From contig JBGAGG010000004.1 of NCBI GenBank assembly GCA_044226845.1, positions 254,732 through 278,731 of the forward strand: a DNA stretch of 24,000 nt, read 5' to 3'. Each line of letters starts with the position of its first letter. Position 1 is the stretch's first letter. This DNA is from Ignavibacteria bacterium (lineage in GTDB: Bacteria > Bacteroidota > Ignavibacteria > Tepidaquicellales > Tepidaquicellaceae). Made by a program: the position numbers and the translations under genes. The notes below the pieces were generated by a model. That model did not search any database. It was not told the DNA's origin and saw only the letters and a program-made list of their open reading frames with translations. This document shows, in pieces, positions 3,992 to 21,377 of this stretch.

Positions 3992-4531
3992 CTAAACTGC
4001 CTGCATTTTTCTTATAAGTCTTATCTGTCCTCTGTGATTTATCTCATCTTCAAAAACGTGATACCAGTCGAAGTAATTATTTCCTTCTCCTCCAAATACC
4101 GGCGAAAATACTTTTGGCTTTAACAGCCAATCATCATCATATTTAGAGAATTCTTCAAGTGTTATATTTCGCTCTCTAGCTAATTCATCGAGATAATATT
4201 CTAATGGATTTCCTTTTATTTTTTCTCTTCCTAAATCCCCTAAATCCAGAGCAGGTTTAATCGGTTCTATTTCTTCTTCAGTCATTTCCCTGCCCTCAAA
4301 AGTATAAACCTGATACCACTTATCAACTGCGGCAATGTGCGCAAGCAGTGCGCCTATTGAATTTGATGTTTCACTGAACTGATAATCAAGCTGCTCGGTA
4401 GATAATCCTTTAACACTTTGAAGAGTTGTAACTCGCGCATAATTCATCATAATAATAAGATGACTCATAATTGGAGTAAAGCCGTCTAATGGTTGTATGA
4501 TGTAAGGATTTTCAATTATAACTTCTTTCAT
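3992..4531 (-). CDS. DinB-family (DinB_2-like four-helix-bundle metalloprotein) protein
   Basis: 179-aa ORF. Contains IGALLAHIAAVDKWY and a C-terminal FEDEINHRGQIRLIRK; the spaced His residues are typical of the DinB superfamily. Confidence 0.65.
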   Translation of the reverse strand: MKEVIIENPYIIQPLDGFTPIMSHLIIMMNYARVTTLQSVKGLSTEQLDYQFSETSNSIGALLAHIAAVDKWYQVYTFEGREMTEEEIEPIKPALDLGDLGREKIKGNPLEYYLDELARERNITLEEFSKYDDDWLLKPKVFSPVFGGEGNNYFDWYHVFEDEINHRGQIRLIRKMQAV

Positions 4532-5531: not shown

Positions 5532-5966
5532 TTACTGAAAATTACTATTGCTAAAAATTAATTGTGGTGTATTATACTGCTGTATTATATGTGGTCGTAC
5601 AATTTTTATTCCATATTTCTCTGCATATTCACTCTTCATATTTGTAAACGAAACAATCGGAAGTTTAGTTTCGATTAGAATCGCCGTTACACATGCTTCT
5701 CTGTAGTTTACATTATCTTTCAGAAGCTTCCCGATAGTGTGAGAGTACTTATAAGGTATTCCCAGAACTCCCGAACCGAAGAAAGACTGCTTTGCATTTT
5801 CTTCCTGTTCTTTTGTTTCGCACTTTGCAAAAACTTCCGAAGCATTAATGACTGAAGTATAGCAGTCAAATAAGCTTAAACATTTTAAAAGAACTGAATC
5901 TTCATTACCTTGAAGATGTTTCAGATAAACATCGGTATCAAGAAAAACTTCGAATTCACTTTTCAT
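5532..5966 (-). CDS. Hypothetical protein, PIN-like fold suspected (degenerate acidic residues)
   Basis: 144-aa ORF. The N-terminal strand VFLDTDVYLKHL and the later INASEVF resemble PIN/VapC motifs. The C-terminal region LPIVSFTNMKSEY lacks the usual T-x-D acidic residues. Its ATG overlaps the stop of the upstream ORF (ATGA at 5963-5966). Confidence 0.4.
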   Translation of the reverse strand: MKSEFEVFLDTDVYLKHLQGNEDSVLLKCLSLFDCYTSVINASEVFAKCETKEQEENAKQSFFGSGVLGIPYKYSHTIGKLLKDNVNYREACVTAILIETKLPIVSFTNMKSEYAEKYGIKIVRPHIIQQYNTPQLIFSNSNFQ

Positions 5967-9790: not shown

Positions 9791-9999
9791 AGACCGGGAA
9801 TTTCATATCCGGAAAACTTTTTTCTGATATGAAATTTTATAGAACGTTTTATCGTGTCTAATTGACGAGTTCTATTCTGATTTTACTCAGAACTGACCCT
9901 GAAACTTATTTTAAAGAACTATCTTGATTTCAGATTTCCGATTTCAGAATTCTGATTTTTTATCAAATTTGAATTCTGTACTCAGCATTCTGAATTCTA

Positions 10000-13116: not shown

Positions 13117-13608
13117 TTTATGCTAAAAACCTTTCTTACAAAATTTTCAAAAATTGGGAAAACTCTAAGATACATAGAATAGAGACTATAGTCAATAAAC
13201 TAAAGAATGCACTTGTTTGAGCAATTATATATGGAGCGGTCCAGGCCGGACATCCTGATAATTTCACTTTCCAGACAATAAAGCGGACTAGGCCGGTTCA
13301 TTACCCACGTACTACGGAAAGCTTATTTCACTGTAATCAACAAATATAACAATTCTGTAATTCAAATGAAAGACAGTTGTTTTGCTCGTTGGTCTGTCAG
13401 TTGTTCGTTGCTCGTTCTCTTAGCTATTTTACCTGCCTATGGGCAAGTAAGTAATGATTATTTAATATATAAACTAATTTAACATATTGACATTATGCTC
13501 TATAGTTTATAAATTAGAAATAAAATGTATCTTTCTAATCCTTATTTACTTACCCTCAATTTATTTGTTCTTTTGATTCACGCTTTTTAAAAATTAAATT
13601 AAACCCCA

Positions 13609-15324: not shown

Positions 15325-15395
15325 GTTTAAATAGAAACTTTTTAATAACGCCTCACATTATAATGTTACAATGTAAGGTTAATATTTCTATAAAT

Positions 15396-16640
15396 ATGAA
15401 AAAATTTATTGTGATTTTTTTATTGATGTTTTGTTCTAATCTATTTTCCCAATGGATAAATCAAAAATACCCCGCAGGTTCGCAGTACATTTATTTTAGC
15501 TCTTACTTTTTTAATGGCAGCACAGGTTTCATCGTAGGTTCCGGTCTCTCCATATTAAAAACCACTAATGGGGGGAGTAATTGGGATTTAAGATTTTTAA
15601 ATGGATATGACTTCAGAGGGATTGATTTCATAAGTAACTCCACAGGGATTGCTGCGGGATTTTATACAACTGGTCTATATAGTAGAACAACAGATGGGGG
15701 AGCAAACTGGACTAAATATTATAATCCCGGAGGAAATTTTCTTTACAAAATAAAGTATGCATCAGGAGATACTTTATACGGTTGCGGTTACACTGGATAT
15801 ATAATGAAATCTACAAACGGCGGCTTAGAATTCTTTCAACAAATTTCAAATACTACGGAAATACTATCTGCAATGCATGTTGTTAACAACAATATTGTTT
15901 ACGCAGGCGGAGCAAACGGTAAACTTGTTAAAACCACAAATGGAGGAACAAATTGGTTTTCACTACAATCAAATATGGATTATGATATTATTGATATGCA
16001 GTTTTTAAATGCCAATATGGGATATTTTGCGGCATATGGCAGCAGTGGAGGTATATTTAGAACGGTTAATGGCGGCTTAAATTGGACGCGTCTTCCTATT
16101 ACACCCGGAATACAAATGACGGCAGTATATTATGTAAACTCGAGCGTTGGTTATGCAGTTGGTGTTTTTCAGGCCGGTAAATTCTCATATCACAAAGCAA
16201 TTAAAACTACTGACGGCGGACTTGACTGGCAGGAACTGCCTACCGGAAATTTTTTATGGATGCGTTCCGTTTATTTCGTGAATGAATATACAGGTTGGAT
16301 AACAGGTGACGGAAATCAGATTTTAAAAACAACATCCGGGGGTTTAACTTTCATAAATGAAAATGGTGAAACAATTTCTGATTTTAATTTAGAGCAAAAC
16401 TACCCAAACCCTTTTAATCCATCTACAATTATCAATTATCAGTTAACAATTAACAGCTTCGTAATTTTAAATGTTTATGATGTGAACGGAAAATTACTAA
16501 AAGAACTTGTAAATGAAAAACAAAGTGCGGGAAACTATTCAGTCGATTTTGACGGAAGCGGACTGCCCTCCGGCACATACATTTACCGCCTGCAAGCAGG
16601 CGATTTTTCAGAGACAAAAAAAATGGTGCTGCTGAAGTAG
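15396..16640 (+). CDS. BNR/Asp-box repeat beta-propeller (Ycf48-like) with a T9SS C-terminal sorting domain
   Basis: The ORF is open from 15363, but the Met at 15396 begins the signal peptide MKKFIVIFLLMFCSNLFSQ. There are seven Asp-box-like repeats (TTNGGSNW, TTDGGANW, STNGGLEF, TTNGGTNW, TVNGGLNW, TTDGGLDW, TTSGGLTF). The C-terminus LEQNYPNPFNPSTIINYQL...GTYIYRLQAGDFSETKKMVLLK is a Por_Secre_tail type A domain. Confidence 0.8.
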   Translation: MKKFIVIFLLMFCSNLFSQWINQKYPAGSQYIYFSSYFFNGSTGFIVGSGLSILKTTNGGSNWDLRFLNGYDFRGIDFISNSTGIAAGFYTTGLYSRTTDGGANWTKYYNPGGNFLYKIKYASGDTLYGCGYTGYIMKSTNGGLEFFQQISNTTEILSAMHVVNNNIVYAGGANGKLVKTTNGGTNWFSLQSNMDYDIIDMQFLNANMGYFAAYGSSGGIFRTVNGGLNWTRLPITPGIQMTAVYYVNSSVGYAVGVFQAGKFSYHKAIKTTDGGLDWQELPTGNFLWMRSVYFVNEYTGWITGDGNQILKTTSGGLTFINENGETISDFNLEQNYPNPFNPSTIINYQLTINSFVILNVYDVNGKLLKELVNEKQSAGNYSVDFDGSGLPSGTYIYRLQAGDFSETKKMVLLK

Positions 16641-16759
16641 TTGATAGTTGTCAGTTTTGCGGTTATTTGTCAAGTAAAAATTCCTCCCTATACCTACTAA
16701 TAGGGAAGAATAAATTGCCCGCAAGTTTTATTATTATTATTTTGTAGAAGTACAATCCG

Positions 16760-16796
16760 GACCTGACAGGTTTTTAATCCTGTCAGGTCTTTTGCA
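16760..16796 (+). terminator. Rho-independent terminator
   Basis: gacctgacagg (16760-16770), loop tttttaat, cctgtcaggtc (16779-16789), followed by ttttgcatttt. Confidence 0.7.
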
Positions 16797-16998
16797 TTTT
16801 AGAAAAAATATCCCGCTAAAGACGGGACTGCGCTACGCTCAGAATGTTACAATAATGCTACTTTGAAATGAACTCCCCCTCCTTACTAAGGAGGGGGCTT
16901 GGGGTGGTTATCAAAGCAGAAAAAAATGTGACAATAATATGACTATAATCGATAGCCCTCATTTTATGCAGGATGACAATCAGAGATTATTTTGCAGA

Positions 16999-17082
16999 AA
17001 TCCGTCAAAAATCCGTCAAGATTAAGTAATTTTTATGAAGTGAAAATGAAAAGTGTGATTTTAAGTCAAAAATAAAGAATGC
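16999..17082 (+). repeat. Copy 1 of an approximately 84-bp direct repeat (R family)
   Basis: aatccgtcaaaaatccgtcaag...gaaaagtgtgattttaagtcaaaaataaagaatgc is about 80% identical by eye to 17284-17366. Confidence 0.8.
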
Positions 17083-17185
17083 TGAACGAAGTGAAGTCCC
17101 GCTTTAGCGGGGTTACTTTTTTGCGACTCTCTACAATTAATGAGATGCTGAGAGGCAAAATAGCGAAAACACAAGAGAATTAAAG

Positions 17186-17240
17186 AATCCGTCAAAAATT
17201 CGTCAAAAAGAAGAATTTGAAAATGTTACTTTTTTGTAAC
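17186..17240 (+). repeat. Shortened copy 2 of the R-family repeat
   Basis: aatccgtcaaaaattcgtcaaaaagaagaatttgaaaatgttacttttttgtaac shares the 21-nt head and the AATG-YKAC tail, but lacks the central segment of about 45 bp. Confidence 0.7.
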
Positions 17241-17283
17241 ACAAAATCTGAGATTAAAAATCTGAAATCTGAAATTAGAAGAG

Positions 17284-17380
17284 AATCCGTCAAAAATTCG
17301 TCAATATGAAGAATTTTTTTCAGGAGAAATTGAAAAGTATGATTTTAAGCCAAAAATAAAGAATGCGACTTTTTTGCGAC
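17284..17380 (+). repeat. Copy 3 of the R-family repeat, including its terminal bipartite motif
   Basis: aatccgtcaaaaattcgtcaatatgaagaattttttt...gaaaagtatgattttaagccaaaaataaagaatgcgacttttttgcgac. Confidence 0.8.
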
Positions 17381-17503
17381 TTTTGCACAGGCTCCCCTCA
17401 GGAAGGAGAGGGGTTAGGGGTGAGGTTTAAATTGATACCGCCCCCTCAGTCCACCTCCTTAAAAAGGAGGAGGAAGCTTGGGAAATAAAATGTGACAATA
17501 ATG

Positions 17504-17929
17504 TTACTTTAACATCAAAGATGATATCATCTTATAATCATTCTCCGGAATTTCAAAAAATCCGGTACGAAATATAAATCCCCATGATTTCTTGTTCTTA
17601 ATAAATTCTAGTTTTTCTATAAGCGGACGAATCTCGACTTCCTTTGATTTCTTGAATTCAATATTTCGCCGAAACGGCTCAAAATCGGCTGACATTTGTA
17701 CTTTTTCTATGTTTTCATCGCAAATTTCACCGATTGCGACGAATTTCTGATAAGGCGCTTTATCGTTCATTCCCTGTTTTGATGCGTAAAATAAAACCCG
17801 GTCGCCTTTGCTGATGCGTTTCAGCGGAGCTTCTTTGCCGTGATTAGCCTGCATAAATGAACCATCGACGCCTTTCATTATGTGGTCTTTGCAGGCAACA
17901 ACAACCCAATATTTTGAGTTCTTTGACAT
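17504..17929 (-). CDS. EVE / PUA-like domain protein
   Basis: 141-aa ORF. SKYWVVVACKDHIMKGVDGSFMQANHGKEAPLKRISKGDRVLFYAS...FVAIGEI...RPLIEKLEFIKNKKSWGFIFRTGFFEI matches my recollection of bacterial EVE-domain proteins of about 145 aa. Confidence 0.55.
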   Translation of the reverse strand: MSKNSKYWVVVACKDHIMKGVDGSFMQANHGKEAPLKRISKGDRVLFYASKQGMNDKAPYQKFVAIGEICDENIEKVQMSADFEPFRRNIEFKKSKEVEIRPLIEKLEFIKNKKSWGFIFRTGFFEIPENDYKMISSLMLK

Positions 17930-21284: not shown

Positions 21285-21377
21285 TTAACAATTAGTAATT
21301 AACAATTAACAGAAATATTTTAAAGTTAGAATAAACGAATAATTAACAACGGACAACCGATAACTAACAACTGACAA

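What the first reader, a model, noticed from the sequence alone, without database searches (positions are those of the whole stretch)
16641..17507. ORF-free island of about 860 bp between convergent genes, carrying six copies of a bipartite 19-nt motif and several hairpin families
Two convergent genes would normally be separated by about 50-150 bp. Here the gap is 863 bp with no ORF of 60 aa or more in any frame.

The island is organised as follows.
- After an ordinary terminator (16760-16796) there are six units.
- Each unit ends in AATG-YKAC-W6-RYKAC, that is, two GNNAC-like pentamers 11 bp apart (one helical turn).
- The spacer is strictly either AATAAT (3 copies) or TTTTTT (3 copies).
- The motif copies are at 16843, 16925, 17109, 17222, 17362 and 17489.
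- The last copy overlaps the stop codon of the EVE-domain gene.

The unit bodies differ.
- A cccgc/gcggg hairpin element occurs in both orientations (16811-16842 and 17082-17112).
- C/T-G/A palindromes are followed by cttgggg/ttagggg (16875-16908, 17391-17427, 17441-17483).
- An R repeat of about 84 bp begins with the tandem aatccgtcaaaaatYcgtcaa (16999, 17186, 17284).

Inference: the helical-turn spacing suggests a tandem-binding protein site such as a recombinase, transposase or partition-like protein. Alternatively, the island is a nest of miniature mobile elements that share terminal sequences, or a cluster of small RNA genes.
Basis: partly seen in the sequence, partly recalled or inferred. 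Interest (0 to 1): 0.65.

Follow-up and report, generated by a model that had tools for sequence, protein, structure and literature searches.

The report
Mosaic repeat array between convergent genes
The 863-bp gene-free gap is real and is a patchwork of short repeats that recur in many intergenic regions of related Ignavibacteria genomes; such arrays are known from other bacteria, but this family appears undescribed and its function is unproven.

Summary
The gap 16641-17503 has no ORF above 44 aa. The six GNNAC-W6-RNNAC sites lie where stated, against 0.69 matches expected in the whole window. An independent MAG contig carries an identical island.

The organism is an Ignavibacteria bacterium. 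Every component of the island is a dispersed repeat found in other intergenic regions of at least five related species:
- the 19-nt motif (types M and M2);
- the AATCCGTCAAAAATYCGTCAA head (R);
- three GC-rich hairpin families;
- a heptad run.

M, M2 and R are tandem 11-bp direct repeats. They do not fold as single strands. Their cores resemble ArcA, OmpR and Pho boxes, which suggests protein-binding sites on duplex DNA.

Arrays are always co-oriented and turn over fast. The orthologous island in a sister genome has different modules and lacks the EVE gene. Tandem duplications and precise insertions of a ~31-33-nt double hairpin at the AATG edge, without target duplication, account for the differences.

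No Rfam family matched. No transposase, CRISPR or integron features were found.

Best reading: a mosaic intergenic repeat array comparable to Neisseria NIMEs or E. coli BIMEs, lying in a plasticity zone beside a swapped secreted-protein gene. Function is unproven. Moderate interest; a new variant of a known kind.

The parts
16680..16711 (.). Hairpin H4 (ATTCCTCCCTAT...ATAGGGAAGAAT) in the 3' UTR of the T9SS gene
   Evidence: Folds at -6.2 kcal/mol, z -3.2. Its core CTCCCTATACCTACTAATAGGGAAGAAT is identical in the orthologous L009 region; the first bases differ by one (ATTCCTCC vs ATTTCTCC).
16759..16796 (+). Hairpin H3 plus a T-run. It is the terminator-like end of the T9SS gene and a member of a dispersed hairpin family.
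   Evidence: 12-bp stem, z -7.2. 34 nt are 100% identical in L010. Copies lie next to M in L022, L088 and L155.
16810..16842 (+). H1 double-hairpin element (TCCCGCTAAAGACGGGA + CTGCGCTACGCTCAG), forward, abutting AATG of the first M copy
   Evidence: 11 independent copies were aligned. 87% of cells pair and helix 2 shows compensatory changes. Presence/absence polymorphism between L023 and L027.
16843..16861 (+). M copy 1, AATGTTACAATAATGCTAC
   Evidence: The same motif is near-invariant in about 25 sites of related MAG loci.
16874..16908 (.). H2 hairpin CCCCCTCCTTACTAAGGAGGGGG plus CTTGGGGTGG
   Evidence: z -3.6. The family occurs in L022, L012, L004, L009 and L159, in either orientation relative to M.
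16925..16949 (+). M copy 2, AATGTGACAATAATATGAC, followed directly by TATAAT
   Evidence: (11-nt period, 2.3 copies).
16986..17082 (+). ATTATTTTGCAGA word, then R-long copy 1. The R head AATCCGTCAAAAATCCGTCAA is at 16999-17019.
   Evidence: The exact R head occurs on 20 loci of three Ignavibacteria MAGs. The 35-nt word 16987-17021 is identical in L005.
17078..17127 (+). M2 copy 1, split by a reversed H1 element: AATG ^ [17082-17112] ^ TTACTTTTTTGCGAC. Hairpin plus T6 forms a terminator-like site.
   Evidence: L009 has the uninterrupted AATGCGACTTTTTTGCGAC at the orthologous place. L117 shows the same configuration. Terminator scan hit at 17095-17114.
17184..17283 (+). A ~98-nt unit: R head 2 (17186-17206), palindromic M2 copy 2 (17222-17240), and a heptad run (AATCTGA)n at 17244-17280
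   Evidence: 92% identical to L009 6363-6462, where the unit is tandemly doubled.
17284..17380 (+). R-long copy 2 (R head 17284-17304) ending in M2 copy 3, AATGCGACTTTTTTGCGAC (17362-17380)
   Evidence: 87% identical to 16999-17082. 11-nt period confirmed by TRF.
17391..17427 (.). H2-type hairpin CTCCCCTCAGGAAGGAGAGGGG plus TTAGGGGTGAGG
17441..17483 (.). H2-type element in reversed orientation (CCCCCTCAGTCCACCTCCTTAAAAAGGAGGAGGAAGCTTGGG)
   Evidence: Inverted repeat I1 with 16874-16907. The same element sits in the opposite orientation next to M in L022.
17489..17507 (+). M copy 3, AATGTGACAATAATGTTAC, containing the EVE stop codon (17504-17506)
   Evidence: In L160, L163, L162 and L009 an M-type box in this orientation follows the Wzi stop (within 35 nt in L009, L160 and L163; first box about 320 nt downstream in L162). 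In L158 a degenerate box follows the EVE stop.

Best explanation
The island is an intergenic mosaic repeat array belonging to a repeat system specific to one Ignavibacteria lineage.

Three motif types are short tandem direct repeats with an 11-bp period. They are M (AATGTKACAAT|AATGYKAC), M2 (AATGYKACTTT|TTTGYRAC) and R (AATCCGTCAAA|AATCCGTCAA). They most likely act as duplex-DNA sites for a protein that binds head-to-tail on one face of the helix. This step is inferred; the binder is unknown.

Between these boxes lie segments drawn from a small set of dispersed families: the R body, a heptad run, and the GC-rich hairpins H1, H2 and H3.

Arrays are polar, meaning every box in an array points the same way. 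They change in three ways:
- tandem duplication of 98-206-nt units (shown);
- replacement of segments (shown);
- precise insertion or excision of small hairpin elements at the AAT(G) edge of a box, without target duplication (shown).

When a hairpin lands next to the T6 spacer it creates a terminator-like site.

At this locus the array fills the convergent gap of a plasticity zone between the Wzi-like gene and rpsL. An array has sat downstream of the Wzi-like gene since before these species diverged, while the neighbouring T9SS cargo genes and the EVE gene have been swapped, moved or lost.

Its local effect is probably structural: transcription stops or insulation between the convergent genes, and homology patches for recombination. 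It is probably not a coding region or a known RNA. This last step is also inferred.
For: Dispersal:
- The exact R head occurs on 11, 6 and 3 contigs of three Ignavibacteria MAGs.
- M and M2 recur near-invariant in those loci, with unconserved flanks.
- They also recur in about 35 Ignavibacteria-like metagenome contigs.
- All copies are intergenic.

Architecture:
- TRF finds 11-nt periods at M, R and M2.
- The boxes do not fold, while the hairpins do.
- 42 of 42 clusters have a single orientation.
- R and M alternate at 18-62 nt.

Turnover:
- The orthologous island in L009 has other modules. It lacks the H1+M and H2+M units and the EVE gene, although fusA-rpsL there is 94% identical in DNA.
- L160, L163 and L162 carry arrays at the same place made of M only, M2 only, or TATTTT/AAAAAT-spacer boxes.
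- L158, L159 and L161 have 150-190-bp gaps there.

Mechanisms seen directly:
- H1 is present or absent at ...CACATT^TTAC..., at different M copies in L023 and L027.
- H1 lies inside M2 in the window but not in L009.
- A 105-nt tandem duplication separates L008 from L028. L022 has a 206-nt duplication.
- H1 helix 2 shows compensatory changes.

Other points:
- Resemblance to known boxes. The ArcA site is ATGTTAAAAA-1-ATGTTAAAAA at 11 bp centre to centre (PMC4173790). The OmpR motif is GTTACATTTTGTTACAT (PMC5438342).
- The flanking T9SS gene is a mosaic: the N-terminal part is 25-30% identical to its positional orthologue and the C-terminal sorting domain about 85%.
- Rfam finds nothing.
Against: - No binding protein, transposase or recombinase was identified. 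None appears among the 25 commonest Pfam families (of 127 matched) in 124 neighbouring ORFs.
- No IS608-type Y1 transposase appears in 918 kb of fetched loci.
- Identical 19-21-mers at many sites could reflect recent spread rather than selection on a binding site.
- In 24 of 32 arrays the gene on the 3' side is co-directional (p = 0.007). Non-neighbour genes show no such bias (48 vs 40). This points to a role in gene regulation that a purely structural or selfish reading does not predict. This island, lying between convergent genes, belongs to the minority class.
- Genome-wide copy numbers could not be measured.
- No expression data were available.
Confidence: 0.6

Rival explanations
1. The boxes are operator or promoter modules for OmpR/PhoB-family response regulators. 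They would be 'mobile promoters' duplicated upstream of many genes. This island would then be an orphan or decoy cluster, or would drive unannotated transcripts.
For: - The 11-bp direct repeats have ATGTTA and CCGTCA cores like ArcA, OmpR and Pho boxes.
- The gene on the 3' side is co-directional in 24 of 32 arrays (p = 0.007). Non-neighbour genes show no bias.
- M-type boxes are followed by TATAAA, TATAAT or TATTTA hexamers 14-31 nt upstream of ATG in L070, L089 and L139. In the window TATAAT abuts M at 16944.
- The identical 20-mer lies 7 nt upstream of TTGACA-17-TATAAT in an unrelated contig of 55% GC, L054.
Against: - Distances from the last box to the gene start range from 14 to over 600 nt, with no fixed geometry.
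- Box positions are not conserved upstream of orthologous genes. At the GNAT locus, L018 and L023 differ.
- Other intergenic regions of the window have none.
- This island and four orthologous arrays point at the 3' end of a convergent gene.
- Identical 19-21-mers are atypical of a regulon.
- No response-regulator family is among the 25 commonest Pfam families (of 127 matched) of the 124 neighbouring ORFs.
Confidence: 0.2
2. The island is a cluster of small RNA genes or structured 3'-UTR elements. Each unit would be transcribed and would end at a hairpin.
For: - Six terminator-like sites against 0.8 expected.
- A possible unit runs from TATAAT at 16944 to the hairpin plus T6 at 17095-17124.
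- H1 shows some compensatory changes.
Against: - No Rfam match even at E <= 10.
- M, M2 and R are unstructured.
- Hairpins occur in both orientations relative to the boxes.
- The candidate unit is not conserved in L009.
- Covariation is modest: 7 of 500 shuffles reach it, on 11 related copies.
Confidence: 0.08
3. The island is a nest of classical MITEs or decayed transposon ends, with the 19-mer as the transposase-binding terminal repeat.
For: - The modules are dispersed, short, intergenic and in many copies.
- From my own memory, untested here: the M core GACAATAATGT resembles TnsB-type binding repeats.
Against: - No terminal inverted repeats, and all copies in an array are direct.
- No target duplication at the one clear empty site.
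- The flanks of M are not conserved.
- No transposase in the neighbourhoods.
Confidence: 0.07
4. The island is an assembly artefact, either a collapsed or a chimeric repeat region.
For: Two Logan contigs break at 16994, the edge of a dispersed 35-nt word.
Against: - An independent MAG contig spans the whole island with 100% identity.
- The Logan contigs agree over 16994-17507.
- Orthologous arrays exist in four other assemblies.
Confidence: 0.01

Closest known systems
Neisserial intergenic mosaic elements (NIMEs: dRS3 repeats flanking RS segments; PMC1797815)
   Same: - A ~20-bp repeat recurs between 50-150-bp segments drawn from many repeat families.
- The elements form long intergenic arrays that differ in number and length between close relatives.
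- The arrays contain opportunistic insertions of other small repeats.
- Here the array sits beside a secreted-protein gene that has been exchanged between relatives.
   Different: - dRS3 is an inverted repeat (ATTCCC-N8-GGGAAT); M, M2 and R are direct 11-bp repeats.
- Arrays here are strictly polar.
- No phage or recombinase that targets the boxes is known.
- The link to T9SS cargo genes is not significant across loci.
E. coli REP/BIME elements (own knowledge)
   Same: - GC-rich extragenic hairpins in both orientations are combined with specific AT-richer linker motifs, some of which bind proteins.
- They are common at the 3' ends of genes and between convergent genes.
- They are mosaic and variable.
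   Different: - No GTAG-type 5' tetranucleotide.
- No RAYT gene seen.
- The conserved, oriented parts are the AT-rich boxes rather than the hairpins.
ArcA-P, OmpR and PhoB binding sites (PMC4173790, PMC5438342)
   Same: - Two or more direct repeats at 10-11 bp centre to centre.
- M is ATGTKACAAT-A-ATGTTAC, against ArcA ATGTTAAAAA-1-ATGTTAAAAA.
- R is CCGTCAAAAATCCGTCAA, against the Pho box CTGTCATAAAACTGTCAC (Pho box quoted from my own knowledge).
   Different: - The sequences are far more uniform and more numerous per locus than a usual regulon.
- No fixed distance to promoters.
- Here they lie between convergent genes.
- Binding has not been tested.
Pneumococcal BOX elements and Deinococcus small noncoding repeats (own knowledge)
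   Same: Modular dispersed repeats built from a few sub-units in variable number.
   Different: - Different sequences.
- BOX has a fixed A-B(n)-C order and folds as a whole; these arrays do not.

Membership tests
NIME-like intergenic mosaic array | A ~20-bp repeat recurs between 50-150-bp segments from repeat families | tested here: met
   Six boxes lie 82-184 nt apart. The intervening segments are R, H1, H2 or heptad family members.
NIME-like intergenic mosaic array | The boundary repeat is a 20-bp inverted repeat (dRS3) | tested here: not met
   The boxes are direct 11-bp repeats and do not fold.
NIME-like intergenic mosaic array | Arrays differ in repeat number and length between related genomes | tested here: met
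   The window compared with L009, L160, L163 and L162 at the same locus.
NIME-like intergenic mosaic array | Association with divergent surface or secreted protein genes | tested here: inconclusive
   At this locus, yes: the T9SS gene is 35% identical to its positional orthologue, against 97-99% for neighbouring genes. Across loci, 16 of 188 ORFs carry the sorting domain and immediate neighbours are not clearly enriched.
REP/BIME | 20-40-nt GC-rich imperfect palindromes, multicopy and extragenic | tested here: met
   H1-H4 fold with z of -1.2 to -7. Copies occur in many loci.
REP/BIME | Conserved 5' tetranucleotide (GTAG type) and a cognate RAYT gene | tested here: not met
   The 5' flanks of H1 are CATT, AATG, ATTT and GTTA. 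No Y1 transposase in 918 kb of loci. Whole genomes could not be searched.
MITE | Terminal inverted repeats and target-site duplication | tested here: not met
   All boxes are direct. The empty site CACATT^TTAC in L023 compared with the filled site in L027 shows no duplication.
CRISPR array | 23-50-nt repeats with unique spacers of uniform length, and cas genes | tested here: not met
   The repeats are 19-21 nt. The 'spacers' are 60-165 nt and are themselves repeated. No cas gene among the window genes scanned.
Integron attC / CALIN | R''/L''...L'/R' imperfect palindrome with a GTTRRRY core | tested here: not met
   Read directly from the sequence: GTTACAA fails GTTRRRY, and the boxes are not palindromic.
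OmpR/PhoB-type response-regulator site | Direct repeats at 10-11 bp centre to centre, with a conserved 5-6-bp core | tested here: met
   TRF period of 11. Core ATGTKA / CCGTCA. Reference sites.
OmpR/PhoB-type response-regulator site | Bound by a response regulator and positioned relative to a promoter | not testable with these tools
   Only indirect evidence: 24 of 32 arrays are co-directional with the gene on their 3' side, and distances are variable.
Any Rfam RNA family | A covariance-model match | tested here: not met
   Nothing at gathering score. Best E-value 0.6, far below gathering score.

The most novel reading that the evidence does not exclude
The 11-bp direct-repeat boxes may be the sites of a lineage-specific DNA-binding protein, either a winged-helix regulator or a recombinase. 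That protein would nucleate polar arrays held at fixed chromosomal positions over long evolutionary times. For example, an array lies downstream of the Wzi-like gene in genomes whose Wzi proteins are 69-97% identical, while its content is homogenised within each genome. On this reading the arrays are a previously undescribed chromosomal system, serving either as directional insulators or regulators of the neighbouring gene, or as a recombination platform for exchanging adjacent T9SS cargo genes.
Probability: 0.15. Interest if true: 0.7.

Novelty: new variant of a known kind. Interest (0 to 1): 0.45.

Why it matters
Mosaic intergenic repeat arrays have been studied mainly in a few pathogens and model bacteria, where they affect mRNA ends, protein binding and recombination next to surface-protein genes. 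I found no description of such a system in Ignavibacteria; four full-text searches (two of them naming Ignavibacteria) returned none.

This family has an unusual grammar. The boxes are oriented direct repeats that look like response-regulator sites. Small hairpins insert beside them without duplication. Arrays stay at one locus while their content turns over.

If a binding protein exists, the family offers a tractable case of how regulatory-looking sites spread through a genome. On the practical side, these repeats break short-read assemblies and generate spurious small ORFs in MAG annotation.

Tried and rejected
- **Rfam** at gathering and at E <= 10: nothing relevant. No tRNA or tmRNA in the island.
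- **Sigma-54 promoters downstream of arrays:** one plausible site in about 250 kb, with no association.
- **Sigma-70 geometry for M or R as -35/-10 elements:** checked by eye and not consistent, with spacers of 10, 20 or 23 nt. The window's own rpsL promoter looks like an ordinary TTGACT-17-TATCTT.
- **Conserved mini-ORF in R-long:** the frame is not kept in L009.
- **Orientation tied to replication or general gene direction:** non-neighbour genes split 48 same to 40 opposite.
- **Enrichment next to T9SS cargo genes:** not significant.
- **Viral contigs:** 7 hits to M, all in unrelated contexts.
- **Metagenome hits:** many lie in unrelated organisms. One gut locus was sampled about 45 times, one coding region about 8 times, and there are several high-GC contigs. 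These were set aside as chance or as unrelated regulator boxes.
- **Fixed R-to-M syntax:** R and M alternate at similar distances in both directions.
- **Literature:** four full-text searches, two of them naming Ignavibacteria, found no description of these repeats.
Full report
**Observation**

The window is a chromosomal segment carrying rpsL-rpsG-fusA, a tRNA and tuf. Its GC content is about 36%.

The gene at 15363-16640 (+) encodes a BNR/sortilin-like protein with a T9SS C-terminal sorting domain. The gene at 17504-17929 (-) encodes an EVE-domain protein. Between them lie 863 bp whose longest ORFs are 44 and 41 aa.

GNNAC-W6-RNNAC gives 9 strand-matches in the window against 0.69 expected, and none of 100 shuffles reaches 9. 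The R repeat, the hairpins and their coordinates are as described, apart from five small corrections listed under the observation check.

The region is not an assembly artefact. A MAG contig from GCA_964595375.1 is identical across the island, and two Logan contigs agree over 16994-17507. Those two contigs stop at 16994. That is the edge of a 35-nt word found identically elsewhere (L005), which is the behaviour expected of a dispersed repeat in a de Bruijn graph.

**What the pieces are**

A scan of one genome per species with the R head AATCCGTCAAAAATYCGTCAA returned 27 loci. Twenty of them lie on 11, 6 and 3 contigs of three Ignavibacteria MAGs.

It appears as aAAATGTKACAATAATGYKAC (M) and gAATGYKACTTTTTTGYRAC (M2). 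The flanks are unconserved, so it is an autonomous site of about 21 nt and not the end of a longer element.

The other parts of the island recur there too:
- the H1 double hairpin, directly 5' of AATG;
- the CCCCCTCCTT...AAGGAGGGGG hairpin H2, in either orientation;
- the GACCTGACAGG...CCTGTCAGGTC hairpin H3;
- the heptad run.

About 35 of these look like Ignavibacteria and carry the same companions. The rest are unrelated organisms. All copies in the related loci are intergenic.

**Nature of the boxes**

Tandem Repeats Finder reports an 11-nt period at M, M2 and R:
- M reads AATGTGACAAT|AATGTTAC;
- R reads AATCCGTCAAA|AATCCGTCAA.

As single strands they have no structure (z about 0), whereas the hairpin families fold with z of -1.2 to -7. 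Variation among copies is confined to the two middle bases of each pentamer, G-Y-K-A-C.

This is the architecture of sites bound head-to-tail by winged-helix response regulators. The minimal ArcA site is ATGTTAAAAA-1-ATGTTAAAAA at 11 bp centre to centre (PMC4173790). The OmpR ChIP motif is GTTACATTTTGTTACAT (PMC5438342). R also resembles the Pho box, which I quote from my own knowledge. I treat these as resemblances, not as membership; binding is untested.

**Arrays and their dynamics**

Within any one intergenic region all boxes point the same way; 42 of 42 clusters have a single orientation. R and M alternate at 18-62 nt.

L009 (JBHEKU010000238.1) is the orthologous locus of a sister genome. 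Its fusA-rpsL DNA is 94% identical and its Wzi-like protein 96-97% identical. Its island contains R-long plus M2, and two tandem 97-nt units of R head, M2 and heptads. It lacks the H1+M and H2+M units, the two H2 elements near 17400 and the EVE gene.

More distant relatives found through the Wzi-like protein show the following:

| Locus | Wzi identity | State downstream of the Wzi-like gene |
|---|---|---|
| L160 | about 81% | three M copies, no genes before rpsL |
| L163 | 81% | five M2 copies |
| L162 | 69% | boxes with TATTTT and AAAAAT spacers; synteny otherwise broken |
| L158, L159, L161 | 72-83% | gaps of 150-190 bp, with at most one degenerate box |

The position downstream of the Wzi-like gene is therefore old, the content is fluid, and the box type is homogenised within each genome.

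**Mechanisms visible in the comparisons**

1. Tandem duplication. A 105-nt unit carrying M is doubled in L008 relative to L028. L022 has a 206-nt duplication. The window and L009 have a 97-98-nt unit.

2. Insertion or excision of H1.
   - L027 has CTGTGCAAAGCACAGTCCCGTCTTTAGCGGGA between ...GTCACATT and TTAC..., where L023 reads GTCACATTTTAC. L023 in turn has an H1 at another M copy that is empty in L027. There is no target duplication.
   - In the window, H1 in reverse orientation splits M2 as AATG^...^TTACTTTTTTGCGAC. L009 has the intact box, and L117 shows the same configuration.
   - H1 is also found inside an R tandem and inside heptads (L012).
   - Eleven copies keep two helices, 87% of cells paired, with compensatory changes in helix 2. 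Support is modest: 7 of 500 shuffles reach the observed covariation.
   - When H1 lands before the T6 spacer it makes a terminator-like site at 17095-17124.

No transposase or recombinase family is among the 25 commonest Pfam families (of 127 matched) in 124 neighbouring ORFs.

**Context**

The interval between the Wzi-like gene and rpsL is a plasticity zone. The EVE gene lies next to Wzi in the window and in L158, elsewhere in L159, and is absent from L009, L160 and L163.

The T9SS cargo genes there share only 31-61% identity, while Wzi shares 72-97% in the same loci and fusA 99% (window vs L009). The window's T9SS gene is a mosaic of its positional orthologue in L009: 25-30% identity over the first ~400 aa, about 85% over the sorting domain, and 81% DNA identity in the 3' UTR. 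This parallels what is described for NIME arrays next to variable surface-protein genes (PMC1797815). Across all loci, however, T9SS genes are not clearly enriched next to arrays.

**A result that cuts the other way**

The gene on the 3' side of an array is co-directional in 24 of 32 cases (binomial p = 0.007). Genes further away are not biased, at 48 same to 40 opposite.

Some M-type boxes are followed by a -10-like hexamer 14-31 nt upstream of a start codon. In the window TATAAT abuts M at 16944.

This keeps a regulatory reading alive, in which the boxes are operator or promoter modules that have been copied around. Several points count against it as the main explanation:
- distances to gene starts are variable;
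- positions upstream of orthologous genes are not conserved;
- the copies are uniform in sequence;
- other intergenic regions of the window have none;
- this array and its four orthologues face the 3' end of a convergent gene.

**Verdict**

The island is a mosaic intergenic repeat array of an Ignavibacteria-specific repeat system. Its closest analogues in organisation are NIMEs and BIMEs, but its boundary boxes are oriented direct repeats that look like response-regulator sites.

- The descriptive part is well supported.
- Duplication and hairpin insertion are shown directly.
- A protein binder, and any role as terminator, insulator, regulator or recombination substrate, are inferred.
- I found no published description of these repeats.
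- I rate it a new variant of a known kind, of moderate interest.

Noticed in passing
window 15363-16765 vs L009 4332-5946: The T9SS cargo gene is a mosaic of its positional orthologue. The N-terminal ~400 aa are 25-30% identical. The last ~85 aa (the sorting domain) are about 85% identical, and the 3' UTR is 81% identical in DNA. Neighbouring genes are 97-99% identical. The left breakpoint is near window 13415, and in L009 an H2-type hairpin element sits at that breakpoint.
   Followed up: partly
L158, L159, L160, L161, L163 (interval between the Wzi-like gene and rpsL): Gene content in this interval differs in every relative. It holds no genes, EVE plus one T9SS gene, T9SS plus Kelch plus EVE in another order, or two other T9SS genes. 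The EVE gene changes position or is lost.
   Followed up: partly
window 9927-9960: A run of heptads (gatttcagatttccgatttcagaattctgatttt) lies between fusA and the tRNA. It resembles the heptad run at 17244-17280 of the island.
   Followed up: no
window 13380-13415, 16641-16665, 21285-21330; L009 about 4085-4120 and 5806-5850: Low-complexity words of the type GTTGTCAGTTGTTCGTTG recur right next to gene ends. They look like another dispersed intergenic motif.
   Followed up: no
L039, L040, L054, L055, L091, L127, L133, L152 (metagenome contigs, 51-65% GC): The exact 20-mer AAATGTKACAATAATGYKAC also occurs in unrelated high-GC contigs, where an AT-rich 20-mer should be very rare by chance. In L054 it lies 7 nt upstream of a TTGACA-17-TATAAT promoter-like site. 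These may be regulator boxes of other phyla.
   Followed up: no
L159 13529-14798: A 1.27-kb gap between EVE and rpsL is packed with GC-rich hairpin repeats (the H2 family and others, some nested) but has no M or R boxes. The hairpin families can therefore form clusters on their own.
   Followed up: no
L012 3640-3760 and L004 6280-6340: Hairpin elements are nested inside other hairpin elements. A CCCGCTAAAGCGGG unit sits in the loop region of an H2-type element.
   Followed up: no
L162 11600-12100: A further 11-bp direct-repeat variant, AAAATCCGACCTTTTTCCGACTTTT (read on the reverse strand), alternates with M-type boxes in a more distant relative.
   Followed up: no
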